Source of the DNA: Escherichia coli
GTDB taxonomy: Bacteria > Pseudomonadota > Gammaproteobacteria > Enterobacterales > Enterobacteriaceae
Direction: 5' to 3' (one strand)
DNA length: 64,000 nt
Assembly: GCF_048403405.1 (NCBI RefSeq)
Contig: NZ_CP183129.1
In this document: positions 7,824 to 52,064 of the stretch, in pieces
Numbering within the stretch: the stretch's first letter is position 1
Layout of the letters: the number at the start of each line of letters is the position of its first letter
Translations under genes and position numbers: made by a program
Notes under the pieces: generated by a model
The model's database searches: none
The model's input: the letters and a program-made list of their open reading frames with translations, nothing else
What the model was told of the DNA's origin: nothing

Positions 7824-8678
7824 TTAACCTGCAATAGCCATTCCTACCGTCATGTGCAGGCCATAAAAGAGCACACGCCCGATCATCTCACCGCCAAGTA
7901 TGAGGATTAGCCCCAGAACAAGTCCGGCAACGTGAGGTTCACGGCGACGAATGAGCGGACAAAGCCAGCATCCTAGACCTGCGCATAACAATACCACACG
8001 CCAGACCTGTAAGGAGGCGTAATCTGGTACCAGTGCGCTGGCTTGTTGTACGGATGAGTGAATAGACGCCAGAGACAAACCTTGCAGCACAATCACCCCG
8101 GCACAAGCGATCAGCGCCAGAACGCTAATGATGGCAAAGGGTGTGGTATTAAATGTAATGCGGGCTGCCCGCAGAATTGCGGCAGCAAGTATTGGACCGC
8201 TCAACAATACTGTCAGGAAGAAAGCCAGCGTAGTGTAACCGTTATGCCAGGTTGGCACTGTGTCGATTTGATACACGCAGGTCATCATCCAGACGAAAAT
8301 GACGCCGAGCGCCATGCTGACAAGTAACCAGAGTTTCCCCAACGCTTGCGGCATTTTACCGATGACTGCCACCAGCCACCATAATCCGCCAACGGCAAAA
8401 AATATTGAACCGGCAGCAATTTCGTTACTCAGACCAGAAGCACCGATTCGATTCAGCGAGTTAAACGCTCGCAGTGGCGATCCCAGGTGCATGACAGAGG
8501 CAATAAACCCGATGCCCATCAACAGCCAGAGGAAAAACATGCCACGGACAATACGCTGACGGTCTGCGTCATTATTGGCGGCGAACCAGCCAATTCCGCT
8601 AACAATCAGCGCGCCTACTACGCATTGACCCAATACGGTAAAGATAACCAGTGGCCATTCATGCCATCCATTTCCCAT
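7824..8678 (-). CDS. ynfH: DMSO-reductase-type membrane anchor subunit
   Basis: 284-aa hydrophobic DmsC-like protein starting MGNGWHEWPLVIF; overlaps the ynfG stop. Confidence 0.88.
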   Translation of the reverse strand: MGNGWHEWPLVIFTVLGQCVVGALIVSGIGWFAANNDADRQRIVRGMFFLWLLMGIGFIASVMHLGSPLRAFNSLNRIGASGLSNEIAAGSIFFAVGGLWWLVAVIGKMPQALGKLWLLVSMALGVIFVWMMTCVYQIDTVPTWHNGYTTLAFFLTVLLSGPILAAAILRAARITFNTTPFAIISVLALIACAGVIVLQGLSLASIHSSVQQASALVPDYASLQVWRVVLLCAGLGCWLCPLIRRREPHVAGLVLGLILILGGEMIGRVLFYGLHMTVGMAIAG

Positions 8679-8679
8679 T

Positions 8680-9297
8680 TTACACTTCCTCCGGATTAGC
8701 CAGATAACCAGTGGTATCGCCGGTCGGGCGGCTATTGGCGTTAGGTTTGATAACGATATTGGGTTTTGTGAAATGCGCGCGCGGCAGTGGCGCGACGGCA
8801 GCCAGAGTGCCGTGCTTCTGGCGCAGCTCTTCAATTGGACCGAACTCAAGTGCACGCAGCGGGCAGGATTCGACACATATGGGTTGTTTCCCCTCGGCGA
8901 CGCGCGAATAACAACCATCGCACTTCGTCATGTGCCCTTTTTCAGCATTGTACTGTGGCGCGCCGTACGGACAAGCCATGTGGCAGTAGCGGCAGCCGAT
9001 ACAAACATCTTCATCAACCACCACAAAGCCATCTTCACGCTTATGCATTGCGCCGCTGGGGCAGACTTTTGTACATGCGGGGTCATCGCAATGGTTACAG
9101 GAGATGGAGAGATAATAAGCGAACACGTTCTGGTGCCAGACGCCATTATCTTCCTGCCAGTCGCCGCCAGCATATTCATAAATACGGCGGAAACTGACTT
9201 CCGGGCCAAGATCTTTAAAATCTTTGCACGCCAGTTCGCAGGTTTTACAGCCAGTACAGCGGCTGGAATCGATAAAAAATCCATATTGTGTGGTCAT
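8680..9297 (-). CDS. ynfG: 4Fe-4S ferredoxin-type electron-transfer subunit (DmsB-like)
   Basis: 205 aa with four CxxCxxCxxxCP ferredoxin clusters. Confidence 0.9.
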   Translation of the reverse strand: MTTQYGFFIDSSRCTGCKTCELACKDFKDLGPEVSFRRIYEYAGGDWQEDNGVWHQNVFAYYLSISCNHCDDPACTKVCPSGAMHKREDGFVVVDEDVCIGCRYCHMACPYGAPQYNAEKGHMTKCDGCYSRVAEGKQPICVESCPLRALEFGPIEELRQKHGTLAAVAPLPRAHFTKPNIVIKPNANSRPTGDTTGYLANPEEV

Positions 9298-9307
9298 GGG
9301 CTACTCC

Positions 9308-11731
9308 TTAAACCTTTTCGATCTGGACAAGATTGCTGTGCGACGGGTTTCCCTTTGCCAGCGGTGAAGGGCGGTGAGAGGTCAGAATATTGATACTGCC
9401 GCCGTGATCGACCCGGTCACCAAACATATCCGCTTTAAGCCACGCACCTTGCCCGATGGCGGTAACGCCAGGCAGAATACGCGGAGTCACTTTTGCGGCA
9501 ATCAGCATTTCTCCATTATTGTTAAATACCCGCACGGTATCGCCATGACGGATACCGCGTGCCTGAGCATCAATAGGGTTGATCCACACCTCTTGTGGGC
9601 AGGCCTGCTGTAACACATCAATATTGCCGTAGCTGGAGTGGGTACGCGCTTTGTAGTGGAAGCCCGTTAGCTGCAGTGGATAGGTTTTCCGCAGGGGATC
9701 GTCCCAGCCATCAAAACCTGGGGTATACGCAGGAAGGGGATGAATAATTTCATCTTTTTTCAATTCCCAGGTATCCGCAATCGTCGCCAGTCGTTCAGAA
9801 TAAATTTCGATTTTCCCCGAAGGTGTTTTCAACGGGTTTGCCTGTGGATCTTCACGGAATGCGCGGAAAGCGACGTAGTGTTCTTCCGGGCATTTTTTCT
9901 TAAAGATCCCGGTCGTTTTCATCTCCTCGTAGTCGGGCATCTCAGGGTTACGTTCCTTCGTTTTCGCATGGAGATATTTGATCCATTCATGCTGACTGCG
10001 ACCTTCAGTAAAGGTTTGATAAACGTCTGGTCCTAAGCGTTTGGCGACTTCGCTCAGCATCCAGTAGATGGGTTTGCGTTCAAATTTTGCTGAGGTTGCG
10101 GGTTGGGCGAGGATCACATAGCCCATATTCCCGGCAGATTCGTGAGAGATAAGGTCTTCTTGCTCTGTTGGCATCAGGTCGGGCAACAGGATATCGCAAT
10201 ACTTAGCCGAGGCCGTCATGAAGTGGTCAATGCCAACAATCATCTCGCACTTGCTGTCATCCTGAAGCACCTCATGGGTGTGATTGATGTCGCCATGTTG
10301 ATTGATCAATGTGTTACTGGCGTAGCACCATAAAAACTTGATGGGGACATCCAGTTTTTCTTTTCCACGAACACCATCACGGGTCGCGGTCATTTCCGTA
10401 CCATGGTCGATGGCATCTGTCCATGTAAAGACGGAAATCTGCGTTTTAACAGGATTCTCAAGCATCGGGAACCATTCTACCCCCAGATCCCAGCTACCTT
10501 CGCGTACACCTGAGTTGCCGCCGTTTATGCCGACGTTACCGGTGAGAACGGAAAGCATGGCAATAGCGCGGGACGTTTGCTCGCCGTTGGAGTGTCGTTG
10601 TGGCCCCCAACCCTGACAAATATAAGCAGGTTTTGCTGAACCGATCTCTCGTGCCAACTGGATAATTTTTTCTGCCGGGATGCTGGTGATTTTTGCTGCC
10701 CATTCCGGCGTTTTAGCTATGCCGTCAGGCCCTTCGCCCAGAATATAGGCTTTATAATGCGCGTTACGTGGTGCGTTGGCGGGCAGCGTTTTTTCATCGT
10801 AACCAACACAATATTTGTCGAGAAATGGCTGATCGACCATGTTTTCAGTAATCAGTACCCAGGCAATCGCACAGGCCAGTGCGCCATCGGTGCCTGGGCG
10901 AATGGGCAGCCATTCATCTTCACGCCCGGCAGCAGTGTCGTTATAACGTGGATCGATGACGATCATGCGTGCGTTTGAACGTTCTCGGGCTTGCTCGACG
11001 TAGTAAGTGACACCACCGCCGCTCATCCGGGTTTCTGCCGGGTTATTTCCGAACATAACGACCAGTTTCGTATTGGCTATATCATCCGGGCTGTTGCCAT
11101 CATTGGCACCGAACATATAACTCATTGCGGCACTGATTTGAGCGGTACTGTAGCTGCCATAGCGACTGAGAAAACCACCGCAAGAGTTCATCAGACGGTA
11201 CGGGACGTTCGAGTTGGTGATGTTTCCGCCATCTACGCCTGTTCCGTACAGGACATGTACAGCCTCATTGCCGTATTCTTTCAGGATCCGCCGAAGATTA
11301 TCACTGATGGTATCCAGGGCTTCATCCCAACTTATCCGTTCAAATTTACCTTCACCGCGCTTGCCGACGCGCTTCATGGGATATTTCAACCTGTCAGGAT
11401 GATTCATCCGTCGGCGGATAGAGCGCCCGCGTAAACACGCCCGAACCTGATGATTACCGTAGACGTCGTCACCTGTCGTATCAGACTCCACCCAGTACAC
11501 GGTGTCATCTTTCACATGCAAACGTAACAGACAGCGGCTCCCGCAGTTAACGGTGCAGGAACTCCAGACCGCTTTCTCTTCTACCGGTGCCTCTGCCGCT
11601 CGGACCATTTGGGAAAATGGCAGAGTGAAAGCACTGCTTGCCAGCGCAAGACTGCCAAGTGCGGAGGTTTTCATCAGACTTCTACGGCTGATTTCAGCCT
11701 TCATGAGCGCCTCTGTGATATGGATTTTCAT
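9308..11731 (-). CDS. ynfF: molybdopterin oxidoreductase catalytic subunit (DmsA paralog)
   Basis: About 807 aa; twin-arginine signal SRRSLMKTSALGSLALA; Mo-bisMGD oxidoreductase domains. Confidence 0.9.
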   Translation of the reverse strand: MKIHITEALMKAEISRRSLMKTSALGSLALASSAFTLPFSQMVRAAEAPVEEKAVWSSCTVNCGSRCLLRLHVKDDTVYWVESDTTGDDVYGNHQVRACLRGRSIRRRMNHPDRLKYPMKRVGKRGEGKFERISWDEALDTISDNLRRILKEYGNEAVHVLYGTGVDGGNITNSNVPYRLMNSCGGFLSRYGSYSTAQISAAMSYMFGANDGNSPDDIANTKLVVMFGNNPAETRMSGGGVTYYVEQARERSNARMIVIDPRYNDTAAGREDEWLPIRPGTDGALACAIAWVLITENMVDQPFLDKYCVGYDEKTLPANAPRNAHYKAYILGEGPDGIAKTPEWAAKITSIPAEKIIQLAREIGSAKPAYICQGWGPQRHSNGEQTSRAIAMLSVLTGNVGINGGNSGVREGSWDLGVEWFPMLENPVKTQISVFTWTDAIDHGTEMTATRDGVRGKEKLDVPIKFLWCYASNTLINQHGDINHTHEVLQDDSKCEMIVGIDHFMTASAKYCDILLPDLMPTEQEDLISHESAGNMGYVILAQPATSAKFERKPIYWMLSEVAKRLGPDVYQTFTEGRSQHEWIKYLHAKTKERNPEMPDYEEMKTTGIFKKKCPEEHYVAFRAFREDPQANPLKTPSGKIEIYSERLATIADTWELKKDEIIHPLPAYTPGFDGWDDPLRKTYPLQLTGFHYKARTHSSYGNIDVLQQACPQEVWINPIDAQARGIRHGDTVRVFNNNGEMLIAAKVTPRILPGVTAIGQGAWLKADMFGDRVDHGGSINILTSHRPSPLAKGNPSHSNLVQIEKV

Positions 11732-11791
11732 CATTACTCACTTATTGCTTTTCAAACAAAATGTCATGTCAGAATTTATGGTTGTAGTGGG

Positions 11792-42330: not shown

Positions 42331-43838
42331 TGGCAATTCTTGATGATGTGATTGGCGTTTTTTCACCAGGATGGAAAGCGGCAAGGCTGCGTTCCCGGGC
42401 GGTGATCCAGGCTTATGAGGCCGTAAAAACGACGCGGACACACAAAGCCCGGCGGGAAAACCGAACTGCCGACCAGTTAAGCCTCTACGGGGCCGTGTCG
42501 TTACGTGAGCAGGCCCGTTACCTTGATAACAACCACGATCTGGTCATTGGTGTATTTGACAAGCTGGAAGAACGGGTGGTGGGGAAAAACGGGATTATTG
42601 TCGAGCCACATCCGGTATTACGCAATGGGGCCATTGCCCGTGATCTGGCAGCGGAGATACGCACCCGATGGAGTGAATGGTCTGTCAGTCCGGAAGTTAC
42701 CGGGCAGTTTACCCGTCCGATGCTGGAACGTCTGATGCTGCGTACCTGGCTGCGCGATGGTGAGGTGTTTGCCCAGATGGTTTCCGGGCGCATAAACAGC
42801 CTGACGCCTTCTGCCGGTGTTCATTTCTGGCTGGAGGCACTCGAGCCAGACTTTATTCCCATGACCAGTGATGAGAGCAACAGGCTGAATCAGGGCGTGT
42901 TTGTTGATGACTGGGGGCGTCCCGAAAAATATCTGGTGTATAAAAGTCGTCCTGTATCCGGACGGCAGATGGAAACCAAAGAAGTGGATGCAGAGCGAAT
43001 GCTGCATCTTAAATTTGTTCGCCGTCTGCACCAGATGCGCGGGACGTCTTTATTGTCCGGTGTGCTGATCCGCCTCAGTGCCCTGAAAGAATATGAAGAT
43101 TCTGAGCTGACTGCAGCAAGGATCGCTGCTGCTCTGGGGATGTACATCCGCAAAGGCGACGGACAGAGCTATGAAACGGATGGTAATGACAGCAAGGAGA
43201 ATGAACGCGAGCTTACCATTCAGCCAGGCATTATTTACGACGATCTGAAACCCGGCGAAGAAATCGGAATGGTGAAGTCGGATCGCCCCAATCCTAACCT
43301 TGAAACTTTTCGTAATGGTCAGTTGCGTGCCGTGGCGGCGGGCAGTCGTCTGAGTTTTTCCAGTACAGCGCGCAACTATAACGGCACTTACAGCGCCCAG
43401 CGTCAGGAGCTGGTTGAATCCACTGATGGCTACCTGATCCTGCAGGACTGGTTTATTGGTGCCGTCACCCGCCCGATGTATCGTGCCTGGCTGAAACAGG
43501 CTGTGGCATCCGGTGTTATCAGGCTACCCCGCGATCTTGACCGTTCTTCACTGTATACCGCGGTGTATTCCGGACCGGTGATGCCGTGGATTGACCCTGT
43601 TAAGGAGGCTGAGGCCTGGAAAATTCAGATTCGTGGTGGAGCGGCGACAGAATCAGACTGGGTACGTGCAGGTGGTCGTAATCCGGATGATGTCAAACGT
43701 CGGCGCAAGGCAGAAATTGATGAAAACCGCAAGCTGGATCTGGTATTTGATACCGATCCGGCCAGTGATAAAGGAGGCAGCAGTGCCGCAACGAAACGAC
43801 AGGAGCCGCAGCACACCGACGACCAGTCCGAAGAATAA
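42330..43838 (+). CDS. portal protein
   Basis: About 500 aa starting MAILDDVIGVFSPGWKAARLRSRAV; lambda-B-like position and size. Confidence 0.85.
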   Translation: MAILDDVIGVFSPGWKAARLRSRAVIQAYEAVKTTRTHKARRENRTADQLSLYGAVSLREQARYLDNNHDLVIGVFDKLEERVVGKNGIIVEPHPVLRNGAIARDLAAEIRTRWSEWSVSPEVTGQFTRPMLERLMLRTWLRDGEVFAQMVSGRINSLTPSAGVHFWLEALEPDFIPMTSDESNRLNQGVFVDDWGRPEKYLVYKSRPVSGRQMETKEVDAERMLHLKFVRRLHQMRGTSLLSGVLIRLSALKEYEDSELTAARIAAALGMYIRKGDGQSYETDGNDSKENERELTIQPGIIYDDLKPGEEIGMVKSDRPNPNLETFRNGQLRAVAAGSRLSFSSTARNYNGTYSAQRQELVESTDGYLILQDWFIGAVTRPMYRAWLKQAVASGVIRLPRDLDRSSLYTAVYSGPVMPWIDPVKEAEAWKIQIRGGAATESDWVRAGGRNPDDVKRRRKAEIDENRKLDLVFDTDPASDKGGSSAATKRQEPQHTDDQSEE

Positions 43839-43851
43839 TTCCTGGTTCAGG

Positions 43852-45810
43852 ATGCAGGCTGGTCACCAGAGTGACGCGGATATTTATATTTATGACGAGA
43901 TTGGTTTCTGGGGTGTTACAGCGAAGCAGTTTATCAGTGATCTGAATGCACTGGGCGATATCACCCACATTAATCTCCATATCAATTCACCGGGTGGCGA
44001 TGTCTTTGAAGGCATCGCCATTTTTAATGCGCTGAAAACACATGGTGCGTCCATTACCGTTTATGTCGACGGTGTGGCGGCGTCAATGGCGTCGGTCATT
44101 GCGATGGTGGGAAACCCGGTCATTATGCCGGAAAACACCTTCATGATGATTCATAAACCATTTGGCTTTACGGGCGGTGATGCGGAGGACATGCGCACCT
44201 ATGCCGACCTGCTCGATAAGGTTGAGGCGGTTCTGTTACCCGCTTATGCACAGAAAACCGGGAAAACCACCGATGAAATTGCTGCCATGCTGGCGGATGA
44301 GACCTGGATGTCCGGTGCCGAATGTCTGGCACATGGATTTGCTGATCAGGTGACGCCAGCCGTTAAGGCAATGGCATGTATTCAGTCAAAACGTACAGAG
44401 GAATTTAAAAAGATGCCGGAATCCATTCGAAACATGATTACTCCGCCACGCAACAGTGCTCCACGCGTACAGGATGATGAACCTGCAGCCTCCCGGACGC
44501 CAGTGCAGGCAGCAGCACCCGTGGTGGATGAAAACAGTATCCGTGCGCAGGTACTGGCAGAGCAAAAAGCGCGTGTAAACGGTATTAATGATCTGTTTGC
44601 CATGTTTGGCGGGCGTTATCAGACGCTGCAGGCTCAGTGTCTTGCCGATCCTGAGTGTTCGCTGGAGCAGGCCCGCGAAAAGCTGTTGAACGAGATGGGG
44701 CGCGAGTCCACGCCATCCAATAAAAATACACCGGCTCATATTTATGCTGGTAACGGTAATTTTGTGGGGGACGGGATCCGCCAGGCGCTGATGGCGCGTG
44801 CCGGATTTGAAAAAACCGAACGTGATAATGTCTACAACGGGATGACCCTGCGTGAATATGCCCGTATGTCACTGACTGAACGGGGTATTGGGGTTTCCGG
44901 TTATAACCCGATGCAGATGGTCGGTGCGGCGTTCACCCACAGTACGTCTGACTTCGGTAATATTCTGCTGGATGTTGCGAACAAAGCCATTCTGCAGGGC
45001 TGGGAAGATGCTCCTGAAACCTATGAACAATGGACGCGGAAAGGTCAGTTGTCTGATTTTAAAATTGCCCATCGTGTGGGTATGGGGGGCTTCAGTGCTC
45101 TGCGTCAGGTGCGTGAAGGGGCGGAATATAAATACGTCACCACCGGAGATAAACAGGCCACTATTGCACTGGCGACCTATGGCGAGCTGTTCAGTATCAC
45201 CCGTCAGGCCATTATCAATGATGATCTGAATATGCTGACCGATGTCCCGATGAAACTGGGCCGTGCGGCGAAATCCACTATTGCCGATCTGGTTTATGCC
45301 ATTCTGACGTCTAACCCGAAAATCTCCACAGATAATGTAAGTCTGTTCGATAAAGCGAAACATGCAAACGTACTGGAGAGCGCTGCAATGGACGTGGCAT
45401 CGCTGGATAAAGCCCGCCAGTTGATGCGCGTTCAGAAAGAGGGGGAGCGTCATCTGAATATTCGTCCTGCGTTCGTACTGGTACCGACGGCGATGGAGTC
45501 TGTTGCTAACCAGGTCATTCGCTCCTCAAGTGTCAAGGGGGCTGACATTAACGCCGGTATTATTAACCCGGTGAAAGATTTTGCGACCGTTATTGCAGAG
45601 CCTCGTCTTGATGATAACAGCCAGACCACCTTCTACCTGGCTGCGTCAAAAGGCTCCGATACGATTGAAGTGGCTTATCTCAACGGTGTGGATACGCCAT
45701 ATATTGATCAGATGGAGGGCTTCAGTGTGGATGGCGTGACAACGAAAGTGCGTATTGACGCCGGTGTCGCGCCAGTTGATCACCGCGGTCTGGTGAAATG
45801 TACGGCGTAA
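43852..45810 (+). CDS. fused prohead protease (ClpP/S49-like) - scaffold - major capsid protein
   Basis: N-terminal ClpP-like domain (YIYDEIGFWGVT...INSPGGDVFEGIAIFNAL...ASMASVIAMVG), a middle Ala/Gln-rich region and a C-terminal capsid-like domain in one 652-aa frame. Confidence 0.8.
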   Translation: MQAGHQSDADIYIYDEIGFWGVTAKQFISDLNALGDITHINLHINSPGGDVFEGIAIFNALKTHGASITVYVDGVAASMASVIAMVGNPVIMPENTFMMIHKPFGFTGGDAEDMRTYADLLDKVEAVLLPAYAQKTGKTTDEIAAMLADETWMSGAECLAHGFADQVTPAVKAMACIQSKRTEEFKKMPESIRNMITPPRNSAPRVQDDEPAASRTPVQAAAPVVDENSIRAQVLAEQKARVNGINDLFAMFGGRYQTLQAQCLADPECSLEQAREKLLNEMGRESTPSNKNTPAHIYAGNGNFVGDGIRQALMARAGFEKTERDNVYNGMTLREYARMSLTERGIGVSGYNPMQMVGAAFTHSTSDFGNILLDVANKAILQGWEDAPETYEQWTRKGQLSDFKIAHRVGMGGFSALRQVREGAEYKYVTTGDKQATIALATYGELFSITRQAIINDDLNMLTDVPMKLGRAAKSTIADLVYAILTSNPKISTDNVSLFDKAKHANVLESAAMDVASLDKARQLMRVQKEGERHLNIRPAFVLVPTAMESVANQVIRSSSVKGADINAGIINPVKDFATVIAEPRLDDNSQTTFYLAASKGSDTIEVAYLNGVDTPYIDQMEGFSVDGVTTKVRIDAGVAPVDHRGLVKCTA

Positions 45811-47498: not shown

Positions 47499-48242
47499 AT
47501 GACCACACCAAATCCACTGGCAAAGACGAAAGGTGCGGGGACGACGTTCTGGATGTATACCGGCAACGGCGATGCGTTTGCGAACCCTTTGTCGGACACT
47601 GACTGGCTGCGTCTTGCGATGGTGAAGGATCTGCAACCTGGCGAAATGACCGCTGATGCAGAAGATGACACTTATCTCGATGATGAAGATGCAGACTGGA
47701 AAACGACAACCCAGGGGCAGAAATCCGTTGGTGATACTTCGGCGACGCTGGCCTGGCGTCCGGGTGACAGCGGGCAGAAAAAACTGGTTCAGTTGTTCGA
47801 CTCCGGTGAAGTCTGCGCGTTTCGTATCAAATATCCCAACGGCACTGTTGATGTTTTCCGTGGCTGGCTGAGCTCACTGGGTAAAACCATTGCCTCAAAA
47901 GACGTGATGACCCGCACTGTGAAAATCAGCGGTGTGGGGCGTCCGTATCTGGCAGAGGAAGGCACTGAAACCGTGAGCGTTACCGGGCTGACAGTATCAC
48001 CGGCGTCTGCCAGTGTAAAAGTGGGAGCAACCACCACGCTGACCTTTACAGTAAAACCTGACGGAGCCAGTGACAAAGCGATCAGTGTGCATTCGTCAGA
48101 TCCACAGACTGCCACGGTTACCCTGAACGGACTTGTGGCCACGGTAAAAGGCGTGAAGCAGGGCAGTGTCAGCATTGTGGGCATGACCGCTGACGGGAAT
48201 TTTGTGGCTGTGACTGCGGTGACTGTCAGCGCAGCAGGTTAA
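47499..48242 (+). CDS. major tail protein (gpV-like) with C-terminal Ig-like domain
   Basis: MTTPNPLAKTKGAGTTFWMYTGNGDAFANPLSDTDW...; C-terminal Big_2-like region. Confidence 0.88.
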   Translation: MTTPNPLAKTKGAGTTFWMYTGNGDAFANPLSDTDWLRLAMVKDLQPGEMTADAEDDTYLDDEDADWKTTTQGQKSVGDTSATLAWRPGDSGQKKLVQLFDSGEVCAFRIKYPNGTVDVFRGWLSSLGKTIASKDVMTRTVKISGVGRPYLAEEGTETVSVTGLTVSPASASVKVGATTTLTFTVKPDGASDKAISVHSSDPQTATVTLNGLVATVKGVKQGSVSIVGMTADGNFVAVTAVTVSAAG

Positions 48243-48262
48243 CAGGACGATACTCATCATTT

Positions 48263-48286
48263 GCCCCGGTTATGCGGGGCTTTTTT
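48263..48286 (+). terminator. hairpin with U tract between V and G (possible attenuator)
   Basis: GCCCCG-GTTAT-GCGGGGC followed by TTTTTT. Confidence 0.5.
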
Positions 48287-48299
48287 GCAGGTGGAGAAC

Positions 48300-48689
48300 A
48301 TGATGTTTCTGAAACAGGACACGTTTAATTATGAAAAACAGTCCGTGGTGCTCAGTGAGCTGTCCGGGCTGCAGAGAATTGAATATCTGACGTTTGTTCA
48401 GCAGCGAACGGCAAAGTTTGATGCCGTGGAGGGAGAACTGCCGGAGGCTGAACGACAGATTGCTTTTCTGCGGATGGGGATGGATATCAATGCCTGGCTG
48501 GTTTCCCGCTCACTGTGGAATGCGGATCAGTCTAAGGATGTAGAGACGCTTTGCGCATCCGTTATTACAACATGGTCGTATGATGCCCTGGGTGCGGGGG
48601 CGGAGATGGTTCTGTCGCTGAGCGGTATGGGGGCCATTGATAATGCCGTGGATGATGAGCATGAGGCGCTGACGCCGGAAAAGTCCTGA
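48300..48689 (+). CDS. tail assembly chaperone (gpG-like)
   Basis: About 130 aa from MMFLKQDTFNYEKQSVVLSELSGLQRIEYL. Confidence 0.85.
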   Translation: MMFLKQDTFNYEKQSVVLSELSGLQRIEYLTFVQQRTAKFDAVEGELPEAERQIAFLRMGMDINAWLVSRSLWNADQSKDVETLCASVITTWSYDALGAGAEMVLSLSGMGAIDNAVDDEHEALTPEKS

Positions 48690-49027
48690 CGCGGGAAATG
48701 CAGTTTGTCATGCGGCTTGCCCGGGAGTTCCGGCGGGCAGACTGGCGGCGGATGCTGTCGGAAATGTCGGCCACTGAGCTTGGTGAGTGGGGCGATTATT
48801 TCCGGATGCAGAGCTTCAGTGATGTGTGGATGGATGCGCAGTTTGCCTCGCTGAAGGCATTGATCGTGAGAATGGTGTCCGGCAGCAGTGATGCTGCGGT
48901 GGCTGATTTCAGCCTTTTACCGGAAGAGAACGGGATACCGGAGCGAACGGACGAAGAACTGATGCATCTTGGGGAAGGTATTTCCGGAGGTGTGCGTTAT
49001 GGACCAGATAGCCAACCTGGTCATTGA
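48677..49027 (+). CDS. gpT-like extension, expressed as a G-T fusion by programmed -1 frameshift
   Basis: Heptamer GGAAAAG (48677-48683) at the end of G; the -1 frame is open from here to the stop at 49027. Confidence 0.65.
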   Translation, partial: GKVLTREMQFVMRLAREFRRADWRRMLSEMSATELGEWGDYFRMQSFSDVWMDAQFASLKALIVRMVSGSSDAAVADFSLLPEENGIPERTDEELMHLGEGISGGVRYGPDSQPGH

Positions 49028-52000
49028 TTTGGGGATTGATGCGGCAGAGTTTAAAAATGAAATTCCCCGTATCAAAAACCTTCTGAATGGTGCAGCCAGC
49101 GATGCAGAACGGTCTTCTGCCCGTATGCAGCGTTTTATGGAGCGTCAGACTCAGGCCGCCCGGCAGACAACGCAGGCAGCTTCTTCGGCTGCAACAGCCG
49201 CATCCGTCCATGCGCAGACGGTGGAGAAGAACGCACAGGCTCATGAACGCATGGCCCGCGAGGTGGAGAAAACCCGCCAGCGCATGGAGGCACTGAGCCA
49301 GAAAATGCGCGAGGAACAGGCGCAGGCCATCGCTCTGGCGGAGGCTCAGGATAAAGCGGCTGCTGCGTTTTATCGTCAGATTGACAGTGTGAAACAGGCC
49401 AGTGCGGGGCTGCAGGAATTACAGCGTATTCAGCAGCAGATCCGACAGGCCAGAAACAGTGGCGGGATTGGTCAGCAGGATTATCTGGCGCTGATTTCTG
49501 AGGTTACGGCGAAAACCCGTGTTCTTACGCAGGCTGAGGCAGAGGCTACCCGACAGAAAGTGGCGTTTATCCGTCAGCTTAAAGAGCAGGCAACCCGCCA
49601 GAATCTTTCTTCTTCTGAGTTGCTTCGTGCCAGGGCTGCCCAGCTGGGGGTAAGCAGTGCTGCAGAAGTGTATATCCGCAAAATGGAGCGGGCAGGAAAA
49701 GCCACGCATTCGCTGGGTCTGAAAAGTGCAGCGGCCCGCCAGGAGATAGGCGTTCTGATAGGTGAACTGGCCCGCGGCAATTTAGGGGCGCTGAGGGGAT
49801 CCGGGATAACGCTGGCTAACCGTGCCGGATGGATAGACACACTGATGTCACCGAAAGGCATGATGCTGGGCGGGGTTATTGGCGGTATTACCGCGGCCGT
49901 CTATGGTCTGGGTAAAGCCTGGTATGACGGTCAGAAGGAGGGGGAAGAATTTAACCGCCAGCTGTCGCTGACGGGGCATTATGCCGGAGTCACTGCCGGG
50001 CAACTGTGGACGCTCAGTCGTGCTATTTCCGGGAATGGTATCACGCAACATGCTGCAGCCGGTGCGCTGGCTCAGGTGGTGGGGAGTGGTGCATTTCGTG
50101 GAAACGATATCGGTATGGTGGCGAGAGCTGCCGCACAGATGGAGCGATCGGTTGGCCAGTCGGTCAGCGATACCATAAATCAGTTTAAGCGGCTGAAGGA
50201 TGATCCTGTAAATGCCGCGAAGTCTCTGGACAATGAGCTGCATTTTCTTACTGCCACTCAGCTTGAGCAGATACGCGTCCTTGGAGAGCAGGGGCGGTCC
50301 AGTGATGCGGCACGGATAGCCATGTCTGCACTGGCAGAGGAAACCGGTCGGCGTACTGCGGATATTGATAATAACCTCAATGCGCTGGGCAGTACGCTGC
50401 AAACTTTGTCTGACTGGTGGAAGCAGTTCTGGGATGCGGCCATGAATATTGGTCGTGAAGATTCGCTGGATGCGCAGATTGCCACTTTGCAGGAGAAAGT
50501 GTCGCGGGCGAAAAGACTCCCCTGGACGGCATCATCTTCTCAGGTTGAATACGATCAGCAGCGTCTTAACGATCTTCAGGAGAAAAAACGCCAGAAGGAT
50601 TTGCAGGATGCAAAAGAGCAGGCAGAGCGGAATTATCAGGAGCAACAGAAACGCCGTAATGCTGAAAATGCTGCACTGAACCGGATGAATGAAACGGAAG
50701 CTGCACGACATCAGCGTGAAATTGCGCGTATTAATGCCATGCAGTACGCCGATCAGGCTGTCAGGGATGCGGCGATACAACGTGAAAATGAACGTTACGA
50801 GAAAGCCCTGGCATCCGGTAAGAAAAAAACACGCGAAACCCGTAATGATGAGGCCACCCGGTTATTGCTGCAGTACAGTCAGCAACAGGCACAGGTGGAA
50901 GGACAGATTGCTGCTGCCAGACAGTCAGCAGGCATTGCCACGGAAAGGATGACAGAAGCGCATAAACAGCTCCTGGCTCTGCAGCAGCGCATCAGCGACC
51001 TGGACGGGAAAAAACTGACGGCAGATGAAAAGAGTGTGCTGGCCCGTAAAGATGAACTGATTCAGGCACTGACGCTGCTGGATGTAAAACAGCAGGAGCT
51101 TCAGAAACAGACGGCACTCAACGAGCTGAAGAAAAAAACAATTCAGCTGACCAGTCAACTGGCTGAAGAAGAGCGCGCTCAGCGTCAGCAACATGACCTG
51201 GATATCGCCACGGTGGGTATGGGTGATCAGCAGCGACAGCGATATCAGGTACAACTGAGTCTTCGCCAGAAATACCAGCAACAGCTGGAGCAGTTGAGGC
51301 GGGATAGTGAGCAGAAAGGGACATATAACACGGATGACTACAGAAAGGCCGAGCAGGCGCTGACGGAGAGCCTGAACCGACAACTGAATGAGAATCGCCG
51401 TTACTGGCAACAGCTTGAAGTTGTGCAGGGTAACTGGAAAAACGGAGTCCTGCGTGCATTTCAGGATTTTACCGTGGATGCAGATAATACGGCAGAAACA
51501 GCAGAACAGGTGTTCTCGTCAGCCTTCAGCAACATGGGAAATGGCCTGGCAACTTTTGTCACTACCGGCAAACTCAATTTCAAATCCTTCACCTCTTCTG
51601 TGCTGTCAGATATGGCGAAAATCCTGGCGCAGGCAACCATGATGAAATCGATAAAAGGGATTGGCAGTGTACTGGGATTTGATCTCAGCAGCCTTTCCCT
51701 GAATGCCAATGGGGGGATTTATCAGTCTGCTGATTTGAGTCGTTACAGTGGCACGGTGGTTAACCGTCCGACGTTTTTTGCTTTTGCAAAAGGCGCGGGT
51801 GTGATGGGGGAAGCGGGACCTGAAGCCATTCTGCCATTGCGTCGTGGTGCTGACGGTAAGCTGGGGGTTGTGGCGGATATTGGGGGTTCAGGTATGGCGA
51901 TGTTTTCCCCGCAGTACAACATCGAGATCAATAACGATGGCACGAACGGGCAGATAGGTCCGGCTGCCCTGAAGGCGGTTTATGACCTCGGGAAAAAAGC

Positions 52001-52064
52001 GGCAGCGGACTTTATGCAACAGCAGGCCCGTGATGGTGGTCGGTTAAGTGGAGCATATCGGTAA
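48999..52064 (+). CDS. tail tape measure protein (gpH-like)
   Basis: About 1020 aa, long coiled-coil Ala/Gln-rich protein with a C-terminal Gly-rich region. Confidence 0.88.
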   Translation: MDQIANLVIDLGIDAAEFKNEIPRIKNLLNGAASDAERSSARMQRFMERQTQAARQTTQAASSAATAASVHAQTVEKNAQAHERMAREVEKTRQRMEALSQKMREEQAQAIALAEAQDKAAAAFYRQIDSVKQASAGLQELQRIQQQIRQARNSGGIGQQDYLALISEVTAKTRVLTQAEAEATRQKVAFIRQLKEQATRQNLSSSELLRARAAQLGVSSAAEVYIRKMERAGKATHSLGLKSAAARQEIGVLIGELARGNLGALRGSGITLANRAGWIDTLMSPKGMMLGGVIGGITAAVYGLGKAWYDGQKEGEEFNRQLSLTGHYAGVTAGQLWTLSRAISGNGITQHAAAGALAQVVGSGAFRGNDIGMVARAAAQMERSVGQSVSDTINQFKRLKDDPVNAAKSLDNELHFLTATQLEQIRVLGEQGRSSDAARIAMSALAEETGRRTADIDNNLNALGSTLQTLSDWWKQFWDAAMNIGREDSLDAQIATLQEKVSRAKRLPWTASSSQVEYDQQRLNDLQEKKRQKDLQDAKEQAERNYQEQQKRRNAENAALNRMNETEAARHQREIARINAMQYADQAVRDAAIQRENERYEKALASGKKKTRETRNDEATRLLLQYSQQQAQVEGQIAAARQSAGIATERMTEAHKQLLALQQRISDLDGKKLTADEKSVLARKDELIQALTLLDVKQQELQKQTALNELKKKTIQLTSQLAEEERAQRQQHDLDIATVGMGDQQRQRYQVQLSLRQKYQQQLEQLRRDSEQKGTYNTDDYRKAEQALTESLNRQLNENRRYWQQLEVVQGNWKNGVLRAFQDFTVDADNTAETAEQVFSSAFSNMGNGLATFVTTGKLNFKSFTSSVLSDMAKILAQATMMKSIKGIGSVLGFDLSSLSLNANGGIYQSADLSRYSGTVVNRPTFFAFAKGAGVMGEAGPEAILPLRRGADGKLGVVADIGGSGMAMFSPQYNIEINNDGTNGQIGPAALKAVYDLGKKAAADFMQQQARDGGRLSGAYR

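What the first reader, a model, noticed from the sequence alone, without database searches (positions are those of the whole stretch)
48670..48700. Candidate G/T programmed -1 frameshift site (GGAAAAG)
The G chaperone frame ends at 48689 while the -1 frame is open from about 48674 through gpT to 49027. The heptamer at 48677-48683 is a one-base variant of the lambda G GGA AAG slippery sequence and permits tRNA-Lys AAG-to-AAA slippage.
Basis: partly seen in the sequence, partly recalled or inferred. Interest (0 to 1): 0.4.

Follow-up and report, generated by a model that had tools for sequence, protein, structure and literature searches.

The report
Phage tail-chaperone G/GT frameshift site
This is the ordinary programmed -1 ribosomal frameshift signal by which a lambda-like E. 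coli prophage makes a little G-T fusion tail-assembly chaperone alongside plain G; the same GGAAAAG signal is already annotated at the same place in phages N15 and phi80.

Summary
Gene G (48303..48689, lambda gpG equivalog) ends at TGA 48687-48689. The -1 frame is open from 48665 (not 48674) to 49027 and encodes a lambda gpT equivalog. The only in-register shift-prone motif in the 25-nt overlap is G_GAA_AAG at 48677-48683. It aligns codon for codon with lambda's G_GGA_AAG.

The heptamer is kept in 43 of 48 distinct relatives, down to about 47% protein identity, including Gifsy-1, Gifsy-2, Fels-1, phi80 and N15-like phages. At the site the codon choice is fixed: GAA 43/43 and AAG 43/48, against 51% and 37% elsewhere in G.

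Many relatives have no start codon at all in the T frame. The window's ATG 48698, which databases use as the T start, has no Shine-Dalgarno sequence and is Leu in most relatives. T-family homology begins upstream of it.

GGAAAAG is already annotated as the slippery sequence in the N15 and phi80 GenBank records, so the finding is correct but ordinary.

No conserved downstream RNA structure exists. A weak Shine-Dalgarno-like GAGG lies 10 nt upstream. It recurs in the cdtI/Gifsy clade and might stimulate shifting on this intrinsically weak heptamer, but this is unproven.

The parts
47499..48242 (+). Major tail protein gene (lambda V homolog with a C-terminal Ig-like domain), immediately upstream of G
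   Evidence: PF16461 Phage_TTP_12 at 5e-67 and Big_2. Annotated as major tail protein in mEp460 and PhiR55_1.
48263..48290 (+). Rho-independent terminator-like hairpin plus T-run in the V-G intergenic space (context only, not part of the shift signal)
   Evidence: GCCCCGGTTATGCGGGGC TTTTTT found. The same position is annotated as a terminator in mEp460 and N15.
48303..48689 (+). Gene G, tail assembly chaperone (128 aa; an alternative ATG lies at 48300), zero frame, stop TGA 48687-48689
   Evidence: TIGR01674 phage_lambda_G equivalog, 182 bits against a cutoff of 74. PF06894 at 6e-40. A GGTGGAG Shine-Dalgarno sequence lies upstream. PGAP names it gpG.
48663..48666 (+). GAGG, a weak Shine-Dalgarno-like motif 10 nt upstream of the heptamer; candidate stimulator, not established
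   Evidence: -5.6 kcal/mol against the anti-SD, a value reached at 17% of window positions. An SD-like core recurs at the same distance in every distinct cdtI/Gifsy-clade relative, up to AAGGAGGTG at -14.5 kcal/mol. It is absent in phi80, N15-like phages and lambda.
48665..48689 (+). Overlap of the G frame and the open -1 (T) frame, the only stretch where a productive shift can occur
   Evidence: overlap 25 nt.
48677..48683 (+). Slippery heptamer G_GAA_AAG (P-site Glu codon GAA, A-site Lys codon AAG); -1 codons GGA AAA
   Evidence: Kept in 43 of 48 distinct relatives. Annotated as the slippery sequence in phi80 and N15.
48683..49027 (+). T segment read in the -1 frame after the shift (114 codons plus stop TGA 49025-49027). 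The GT fusion is 48303..48683 joined to 48683..49027, 241 aa
   Evidence: TIGR01715 phage_lam_T equivalog, 137 bits, matching from residue 5, which lies upstream of ATG 48698. PF06223. phrog_32165, a 290-position profile, is matched by G at positions 1-119 and by T at 141-252.
48698..48700 (+). ATG used by database annotations as an independent start of T; probably just an internal Met codon of GT
   Evidence: Annotated as the T start in mEp460, PhiR55_1 and PGAP records. No Shine-Dalgarno sequence. Leu or another residue in Gifsy-1, Gifsy-2, Fels-1, phi80 and lambda.
48999..52064 (+). Tape measure protein gene (lambda H homolog), overlapping the end of T by 29 nt, with a strong GGAGGTG Shine-Dalgarno sequence inside T
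   Evidence: PF06791, PF09718 and PF24622. SD at -13.3 kcal/mol.

Best explanation
This is the programmed -1 ribosomal frameshift site of a lambda-type G/GT tail assembly chaperone gene pair, in an mEp460/cdtI-like E. coli prophage.

Most ribosomes read ...CCG GAA AAG UCC UGA and release the 128-aa protein G. A small fraction slip back one nucleotide while tRNA-Glu and tRNA-Lys occupy GAA and AAG. tRNA-Lys (anticodon mnm5s2UUU, the only Lys tRNA in E. coli) re-pairs from AAG to AAA. tRNA-Glu re-pairs from GAA to GGA, keeping its first- and third-position pairs and leaving a G.U pair in the middle. Reading then continues GUC CUG ACG CGG GAA AUG... to 49027, giving a 241-aa GT fusion with the junction ...ALTPEK-VLTREMQF....

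By analogy with lambda, the G part of both proteins coats the tape measure protein and the T part recruits the major tail protein. The low shift frequency sets the G:GT ratio.

Shown here:
- the gene identities, the frame geometry and the homologous position of the heptamer;
- nucleotide-level conservation of the heptamer;
- lack of a conserved or SD-equipped independent T start;
- absence of a conserved downstream RNA structure.

Inferred, not shown:
- that the shift occurs, and how efficiently;
- which tRNAs slip;
- the roles of G and GT.
For: 1. Identity and synteny. The order V, G, T(-1), H is as in lambda. G and T are equivalog matches. The region is 100% identical to an E. coli chromosome and 99% identical to phage mEp460.

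2. Homologous position. The shift-site Lys is an invariant column in the alignment of GT fusions from the window, Gifsy-1, Fels-1, Gifsy-2 and lambda.

3. Conservation.
- All four of window, Gifsy-1, Fels-1 and Gifsy-2 (about 70% nt identity) carry CCGGAAAAG(T/C)CCTGA, while the preceding acidic tail of G is hypervariable.
- 43 of 48 distinct contexts have G_GAA_AAG as the single in-register A/T tetramer in the overlap.
- The 80 lambda-clade loci use G_GGA_AAG, and two of them A_AAA_AAG, at the same spot.
- Synonymous choice is fixed at the site: GAA 43/43 and AAG 43/48, against GAA 51% and AAG 37% elsewhere in the same G genes.
- The codon before the heptamer varies (CCG, GCG, CTG) but always ends in G.

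4. T cannot stand alone. Several clades (Gifsy-2 type, phi80, mEp213, L083-86, L066, L068) have no ATG/GTG/TTG in the T frame before LAREF. The window's ATG 48698 lacks a Shine-Dalgarno sequence. An invariant Glu, and the start of the TIGR01715 match, lie upstream of it.

5. Precedent.
- GGAAAAG is annotated as 'slippery sequence for -1 translational frameshift' in phi80 FN582354, with a joined gpG-T CDS, and in N15 NC_001901.
- Gifsy-1 and Gifsy-2 T are annotated as frameshift extensions of G.
- A_AAG is the most shift-prone tetramer in E. coli (PMC4066793) and is used naturally, as in IS1222 G_CGA_AAG (PMC5009743).
- The GAA-to-GGA re-pairing through G.U is discussed for about a thousand annotated actinophage chaperone frameshifts at GGGGGAA (PMC10885494).
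Against: No experiment on this locus exists, and no GT protein was observed.

G_GAA_AAG is not a canonical X_XXY_YYZ heptamer. In a reconstituted E. coli system AUG GAA AAG was chosen as the 'less slippery' sequence and gave mainly zero-frame product (PMC6924986). The A_AAG tetramer alone was barely above background in vivo (about 0.15%) and reached 5.6% only with a strong pseudoknot (PMC4066793).

No conserved downstream structure is present to compensate. The alignment fold gives -2.4 kcal/mol with no covariation, and the window's own fold has z = -1.2. The efficiency may therefore be well below lambda's roughly 1 in 30.

Public annotations of the near-identical records (mEp460, PhiR55_1, PGAP) treat T as a separate gene starting at ATG 48698. 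Termination-reinitiation 8 nt after the G stop cannot be excluded for this sub-clade.
Confidence: 0.9

Rival explanations
1. T is made as a separate 109-aa protein from ATG 48698, as databases annotate it. This could be by translational coupling or re-initiation after termination of G at 48689. On this reading the heptamer is irrelevant.
For: An ATG exists 8 nt after the G stop, and an ATG at this position is present in the E. coli cdtI/mEp460 sub-clade and a few others. The mEp460, PhiR55_1 and RefSeq/PGAP records annotate T this way.
Against: There is no Shine-Dalgarno sequence (-3.3 kcal/mol, against -7 to -13 for neighbouring genes). The codon is Leu, Arg or Lys in Gifsy-1, Gifsy-2, Fels-1, phi80, N15-like phages and lambda, and several clades have no start codon at all in the T frame. 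Conserved T-frame residues, including an invariant Glu and the start of the TIGR01715 match, lie upstream of the ATG. This reading does not explain the fixed synonymous choices GAA and AAG. From my own knowledge of the lambda work by Xu, Hendrix and Duda (cited in PMC5009743), lambda needs T fused to G, because the G part tethers T to the tape measure protein.
Confidence: 0.05
2. The shift is real but is a single-tRNA event on the A_AAG tetramer: tRNA-Lys alone re-pairs, in the A site or in the P site while UCC or UGA waits. The upstream Shine-Dalgarno-like GAGG, rather than P-site re-pairing of tRNA-Glu, supplies the extra push, as in dnaX.
For: The part of the motif common to every variant in the family is A_AAR: G_GGA_AAG, G_GAA_AAG, A_AAA_AAG, G_GCA_AAA and G_GAA_AAA. 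In G_GCA_AAA the P-site tRNA-Ala cannot re-pair well, so tandem re-pairing is not obligatory in the family. An SD-like core sits 6-14 nt upstream in every distinct cdtI/Gifsy-clade context despite differing amino acids. The family mean is -5.8 kcal/mol against a -3.4 background, and some members carry a full AAGGAGGTG. The range 6-17 nt upstream is the experimentally validated one for SD stimulators (PMC4066793).
Against: The first heptamer base always equals the first base of the P-site codon (G with GAA, GGA and GCA; A with AAA), whatever the preceding codon. That is the signature of P-site first-position re-pairing. The window's own GAGG is weak and matched by 17% of window positions. Relatives that use the same heptamer (phi80, N15, mEp213, mEp237) have no SD-like motif there (-1.0 to +0.4 kcal/mol). 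The permutation test treated related sequences as independent, so it overstates significance.
Confidence: 0.3
3. The heptamer is a chance occurrence and T is a decaying or unexpressed remnant in a defective prophage.
For: GGAAAAG is common in the window, with 14 copies against 10.8 expected.
Against: The T frame is intact, scores as an equivalog, and is conserved in viable phages such as mEp460, cdtI, Tritos and HannyBb at 97-99.9% identity. The site is conserved across hundreds of loci.
Confidence: 0.01

Closest known systems
Bacteriophage lambda G / GT programmed -1 frameshift (G_GGA_AAG; Levin, Hendrix and Casjens 1993; Xu, Hendrix and Duda 2004, 2013, 2014, as cited in PMC5009743)
   Same: The gene order V-G-T-H is the same. 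G and T are equivalog homologs (35% identity over GT). The shift site is at the homologous codon near the G C-terminus. The A-site Lys AAG-to-AAA re-pairing is the same. No conserved downstream structure is present.
   Different: The third heptamer base is A instead of G, so the P-site codon is GAA (Glu) rather than GGA (Gly) and re-pairing leaves a G.U in the middle position. The zero-frame stop follows after one codon instead of five. T is shorter (114 against 144 codons). The junction residues differ between frames here (E-K against G-K), so the junction is experimentally resolvable, unlike in lambda.
Phage N15 genes 14/15 and phage phi80 G / G-T, where GGAAAAG is annotated as the 'slippery sequence for -1 translational frameshift'
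   Same: The heptamer G_GAA_AAG is identical, in the same register and at the homologous position. The protein families are the same.
   Different: Protein identity is only about 37%. The preceding codon is GCG rather than CCG. The zero-frame stop is five codons downstream, as in lambda. There is no SD-like motif upstream and no ATG in the T frame near the site.
Salmonella prophages Gifsy-1, Gifsy-2 and Fels-1, G / T (annotated as frameshift-extended chaperone)
   Same: These are the closest non-E. coli relatives (about 70% nt and 56-62% aa identity). They share CCGGAAAAG(T/C)CCTGA, the stop position and an SD-like purine motif about 10 nt upstream.
   Different: They lack the ATG that the window has at 48698 (CTG Leu instead), which makes the frameshift reading unavoidable there.
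E. coli dnaX (A_AAA_AAG with an upstream SD-like element and a downstream stem-loop), and A_AAG tetramer sites (IS1222 G_CGA_AAG, Bacillus cdd A_CGA_AAG)
   Same: All depend on tRNA-Lys slipping from AAG to AAA. A possible upstream anti-SD pairing lies at about 10 nt.
   Different: No downstream stem-loop is conserved here. The SD-like element is weak and unproven. The product is an extension rather than a truncation. The gene families are unrelated.

Membership tests
Lambda-type G/GT tail assembly chaperone with programmed -1 frameshift | The upstream ORF is a gpG-family chaperone | tested here: met
   TIGR01674 equivalog, 182 bits against a cutoff of 74. PF06894 at 5.9e-40. phrog_42.
Lambda-type G/GT tail assembly chaperone with programmed -1 frameshift | The downstream segment is a gpT-family sequence in the -1 frame, overlapping the 3' end of G | tested here: met
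   TIGR01715 equivalog, 137 bits against a cutoff of 77. PF06223. The -1 frame is open 48665-49027, giving a 25-nt overlap.
Lambda-type G/GT tail assembly chaperone with programmed -1 frameshift | Location between the major tail (tube) protein gene and the tape measure protein gene | tested here: met
   V homolog at 47499-48242 and H homolog at 48999-52064.
Lambda-type G/GT tail assembly chaperone with programmed -1 frameshift | An in-register shift-prone sequence inside the overlap, at the position homologous to lambda's, conserved among relatives | tested here: met
   G_GAA_AAG at 48677-48683. The Lys column is invariant against lambda. 43 of 48 distinct contexts keep it.
Lambda-type G/GT tail assembly chaperone with programmed -1 frameshift | Strict X_XXY_YYZ heptamer (three identical bases, then three identical bases) | tested here: not met
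   GGA-AAA-G has XXX = GGA. Only the Z_ZZN half (A_AAG) is canonical, and P-site re-pairing needs a middle G.U pair. This is a feature of the textbook motif, not of the family: N15 and phi80 are accepted members with the same heptamer.
Lambda-type G/GT tail assembly chaperone with programmed -1 frameshift | T has no independent translation start | tested here: inconclusive
   The window does have ATG 48698, but without a Shine-Dalgarno sequence. The ATG is not conserved, and many relatives have no start codon at all. Sequence alone cannot exclude re-initiation.
Lambda-type G/GT tail assembly chaperone with programmed -1 frameshift | A GT fusion protein is produced at a low fixed ratio to G, and both are needed for tail assembly | not testable with these tools
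   This needs proteomics, reporter assays or genetics. The lambda ratio of about 30:1 comes from PMC5009743.
dnaX-type stimulated -1 frameshift (upstream SD-like element plus downstream stem-loop) | SD-like sequence 6-17 nt upstream of the shift site | tested here: inconclusive
   GAGG at 48663-66, 10 nt upstream, -5.6 kcal/mol. It is common by chance (17% of positions) but positionally recurrent in the clade. It is absent in phi80 and N15.
dnaX-type stimulated -1 frameshift (upstream SD-like element plus downstream stem-loop) | Conserved stable RNA structure 5-9 nt downstream | tested here: not met
   Window folds give z = -1.2 and -0.8. The consensus fold of 20 relatives is -2.4 kcal/mol with 0 compensatory pairs. 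No Rfam hit.

The most novel reading that the evidence does not exclude
G_GAA_AAG is the heptamer that ribosome biochemists use as the 'less slippery' comparison sequence. In the clades sampled here it is the usual natural G/GT shift site outside lambda's own close relatives. In the cdtI/mEp460/Gifsy clade its weakness may be offset by a positionally conserved Shine-Dalgarno-like element about 10 nt upstream, ranging from GAGG to a full AAGGAGGTG, and perhaps by the stop codon one codon downstream. If so, the G:GT ratio in these phages is tuned by rRNA-mRNA pairing rather than by the heptamer alone. The graded natural series (no SD in phi80 and N15, weak SD here, strong SD in L033/L039) would then be a ready-made test set.
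Probability: 0.3. Interest if true: 0.35.

Novelty: already known. Interest (0 to 1): 0.12.

Why it matters
The value is mainly practical. The near-identical public records (mEp460, PhiR55_1 and the RefSeq/PGAP annotation of E. coli Ecol_316, which the other RefSeq matches echo in their feature names) list T as a free-standing gene from ATG 48698. That is almost certainly wrong: the true product is a 241-aa GT fusion joined at 48683.

For the recoding field there is a modest point. A heptamer regarded as poorly slippery is under clear purifying selection as a natural shift site, and here the two frames give different junction residues (E-K against G-K). This family could therefore reveal where the shift takes place, which lambda itself cannot.

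Tried and rejected
1. Downstream stimulatory structure. I folded 48684-48790 and 48640-48740 (z = -1.2 and -0.8) and ran RNAalifold on 20 diverse relatives (-2.4 kcal/mol, no covariation). Rejected.

2. Rfam scan of 48200-49100. Only chance-level eukaryotic hits.

3. Independent T start. The SD energy scan and a survey of start codons in relatives both argue against it as the main route.

4. Other sites in the window with the same geometry. The two hits, at minus-strand 8943 and 22729, lie in spurious alternative-frame ORFs inside real genes. Rejected.

5. Transcriptional slippage. A run of only four A is far shorter than known slippage tracts (my own knowledge). Not pursued.

6. Literature search for GGAAAAG as a tail-chaperone shift site. 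Nothing turned up in open-access text except its use as a weak control (PMC6924986). Xu et al. 2004 is not held. The precedent was found in the GenBank annotations of N15 and phi80 instead.

7. Shine-Dalgarno-like stimulator. Tested by energy profile and permutation. It is suggestive at clade level and not significant for the window alone, so it is kept only as the novel case.

Full report
**What is in the sequence**

Window 47.4-54.4 kb is a lambda-like tail gene block on the + strand:
- major tail protein, 47499-48242 (PF16461 plus an Ig-like Big_2 domain);
- a terminator-like hairpin, 48263-48290;
- G, 48303-48689;
- a -1-frame ORF running to 49027;
- tape measure protein, 48999-52064 (PF06791, PF09718);
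- homologs of M, L, K and I.

An 800-nt query spanning this G-T stretch is 100% identical to the chromosome of E. coli Ecol_316. It is 97-99.9% identical to phages mEp460, cdtI, PhiR55_1, Tritos and others, and is present in 1,845 of 5,426 complete E. coli genomes.

**Check of the observation**

In the G frame the end reads CTG ACG CCG GAA AAG TCC TGA (L T P E K S stop), with the stop at 48687-48689. The -1 frame has its last stop at 48662-48664 and then reads G A D A G K V L T R E M Q F V M R L A R E F..., continuing to TGA 49025-49027.

The -1 frame opens at 48665, not about 48674. The overlap is 25 nt.

GGAAAAG lies at 48677-48683 in the register G|GAA|AAG. As a string it is unremarkable: 14 copies against 10.8 +/- 3.3 expected. 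It is, however, the only in-register A/T-type tetramer in the overlap. It is also the only copy in the window with the geometry of a long ORF upstream, an imminent stop and a long -1 continuation within genuine genes.

**Identity of the two proteins**

G matches NCBIfam equivalog TIGR01674 phage_lambda_G (182 bits, cutoff 74) and PF06894. The -1-frame peptide matches TIGR01715 phage_lam_T (137 bits, cutoff 77) and PF06223.

The T profile match starts at residue 5 of the peptide counted from 48683. That residue is the Glu codon at 48695-48697, upstream of the ATG at 48698. A 290-position PHROG profile (phrog_32165) is matched by G at positions 1-119 and by T at 141-252, so it looks like a profile of fused GT proteins.

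**Homology of the site with lambda**

I built GT fusions for the window, Gifsy-1, Fels-1, Gifsy-2 and lambda and aligned them. The Lys of the heptamer is an invariant column: lambda ...SAGK|VFDGELSFALKLAREM against window ...TPEK|VLTREMQFVMRLAREF. The following Glu, Phe and LARE are also invariant.

The window's heptamer is thus lambda's G_GGA_AAG with one G-to-A change, in the same register and at the same codon.

**Conservation among relatives**

Gifsy-1, Fels-1 and Gifsy-2 share about 70% nt identity with the window. All carry CCGGAAAAG(T/C)CCTGA, although the preceding acidic tail of G is completely different in each.

Across 79 IMG/VR loci plus phage records, 48 distinct 300-nt contexts were recovered. 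In every one there is a single in-register A/T tetramer in the overlap:

| Heptamer | Distinct contexts |
|---|---|
| G_GAA_AAG | 43 |
| G_GCA_AAA (followed directly by TAG) | 4 |
| G_GAA_AAA (followed directly by TAG) | 1 |
| G_GGA_AAG (lambda) | 1 |

The first three rows count each locus's in-register A_AAN heptamer, so they sum to 48. Lambda's locus scores once as G_GAA_AAG by that criterion, and its own G_GGA_AAG site is listed separately in the last row.

A second scan seeded on lambda, phi80 and N15-like sequences returned 80 loci close to lambda. All of those with an intact junction have G_GGA_AAG, except two with A_AAA_AAG.

The constraint is at the nucleotide level:
- At the site Glu is GAA in 43 of 43 cases and Lys is AAG in 43 of 48.
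- Elsewhere in the same G genes GAA is 51% and AAG 37%.
- The codon before the heptamer is CCG, GCG or CTG but always ends in G.
- The flanking Thr and Ser/Pro codons vary freely.

The first heptamer base always equals the first base of the P-site codon (G with GAA, GGA and GCA; A with AAA). This is what tandem re-pairing with a preserved first-position pair predicts.

**Is T independently translated?**

Databases annotate T from ATG 48698. Three observations count against that:
- The best anti-SD pairing upstream of that ATG is -3.3 kcal/mol. The values for G, H and L are -7.0, -13.3 and -10.2.
- The codon is CTG (Leu) in Gifsy-1, Gifsy-2, Fels-1, phi80, N15-like phages and lambda.
- Several clades have no ATG, GTG or TTG anywhere in the T frame between its opening and LAREF: Gifsy-2 type, phi80, mEp213, L083-L086, L066 and L068.

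Together with the conserved T-frame residues upstream of the ATG, this makes independent initiation an unlikely main route. Low-level re-initiation in this sub-clade cannot be excluded from sequence.

**Precedent**

The phi80 record FN582354 carries a joined gpG-T CDS and a misc_feature 'slippery sequence for -1 translational frameshift'. Its bases are GGAAAAG. The N15 record NC_001901 marks the same heptamer the same way. Gifsy-1 and Gifsy-2 T are annotated as frameshift extensions of G and cite cdtI as their closest relative.

Both the phenomenon and this exact heptamer variant are therefore already known in the family. What is missing is only the annotation in the mEp460/cdtI-type records.

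**Mechanism**

Established knowledge is summarised in PMC5009743 and PMC4066793:
- E. coli has a single tRNA-Lys.
- AAG-to-AAA re-pairing makes A_AAG the most shift-prone tetramer.
- G_GGA_AAG is among the best heptamers.

In G_GAA_AAG the P-site tRNA-Glu must re-pair with GGA, which leaves a second-position G.U. Peng et al. used AUG GAA AAG precisely as their 'less slippery' sequence and obtained mainly zero-frame product (PMC6924986). The bare A_AAG tetramer gave about 0.15% in vivo, and 5.6% with a pseudoknot.

The PRFect authors point out the same GAA-to-GGA G.U re-pairing for the GGGGGAA motif of about a thousand annotated actinophage chaperone frameshifts (PMC10885494).

I therefore expect a low shift frequency here, probably below lambda's roughly 1 in 30. 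The frequency could not be measured.

**Stimulators**

There is no conserved downstream structure and no Rfam match.

Upstream, the window has GAGG at 48663-48666, 10 nt before the heptamer. That is inside the 6-17 nt range used for validated SD stimulators (PMC4066793). On its own it is weak: -5.6 kcal/mol, a value reached at 17% of window positions.

However, every distinct cdtI/Gifsy-clade context has an SD-like core at the same distance despite different amino acids. Examples are CAGG, AAGGA, GAGGA, GGAGG and AAGGAGGTG at -14.5 kcal/mol. The family mean is -5.8 against a background of -3.4. The permutation p is below 0.0002, but it treats relatives as independent.

phi80, N15-like phages, mEp213 and lambda have nothing at that position. 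I regard an SD-like stimulator as possible (about 30%) but unproven.

**Verdict**

It is an ordinary, already known kind of feature. It has a minor annotation consequence and a modest mechanistic side question.

Noticed in passing
window 48698-49027, and loci L001, L002, L004: Public records of near-identical sequence (mEp460, PhiR55_1, and RefSeq/PGAP for E. coli Ecol_316) annotate T as a separate 109-aa protein from ATG 48698, with no ribosomal slippage. N15 and phi80 mark the homologous GGAAAAG as the slippery site. This is probably a systematic mis-annotation of the GT fusion in this prophage family.
   Followed up: yes
window 48663-48666; L033/L039 and L191 (AAGGAGGTG); L063, L190, L242 (GGAGG): A Shine-Dalgarno-like purine motif recurs about 10 nt upstream of the heptamer in all distinct cdtI/Gifsy-clade relatives, despite differing amino acids. 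It is absent in phi80, N15 and lambda. It may be a dnaX-like stimulator.
   Followed up: partly
L064, L065, L068, L070 (CTG GCA AAA TAG); L066 (CTG GAA AAA TAG): A small clade of relatives has the shift motif G_GCA_AAA or G_GAA_AAA directly abutting the zero-frame stop TAG. P-site re-pairing of tRNA-Ala is poor there, which suggests a 'shifty stop' single-tRNA-Lys slip.
   Followed up: no
L159, L160: Two lambda-clade relatives carry A_AAA_AAG (ACG GCA/GTA AAA AAG) at the homologous G/T position. That is the dnaX-type heptamer, so the first half of the motif has been exchanged several times in the family.
   Followed up: no
window 48263-48290: A strong terminator-like hairpin (GCCCCGG TTAT GCGGGGC plus T6) lies between the major tail protein gene and G. 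It is annotated likewise in mEp460 and N15. It presumably lowers transcription of G, T and H relative to the abundant tube protein.
   Followed up: partly
window 43591-45810: A 739-aa ORF upstream of the tail genes corresponds to the mEp460 'putative protease/scaffold protein' (ClpP-type protease region fused to a long C-terminal part). It was not analysed further.
   Followed up: no
window 7824-11734, minus strand: ORFs resembling a molybdopterin oxidoreductase with Fe-S and membrane-anchor subunits (DMSO-reductase-like, judged from the translations only) suggest that this part of the window is host chromosome rather than prophage. The in-register GAAAAAG at 8943 (minus strand) is in a spurious alternative frame.
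   Followed up: partly
window 48985-49027: The tape measure gene starts at 48999, inside the end of T (29-nt overlap). Its strong GGAGGTG Shine-Dalgarno sequence is encoded within T. H is in the same reading frame as G.
   Followed up: no
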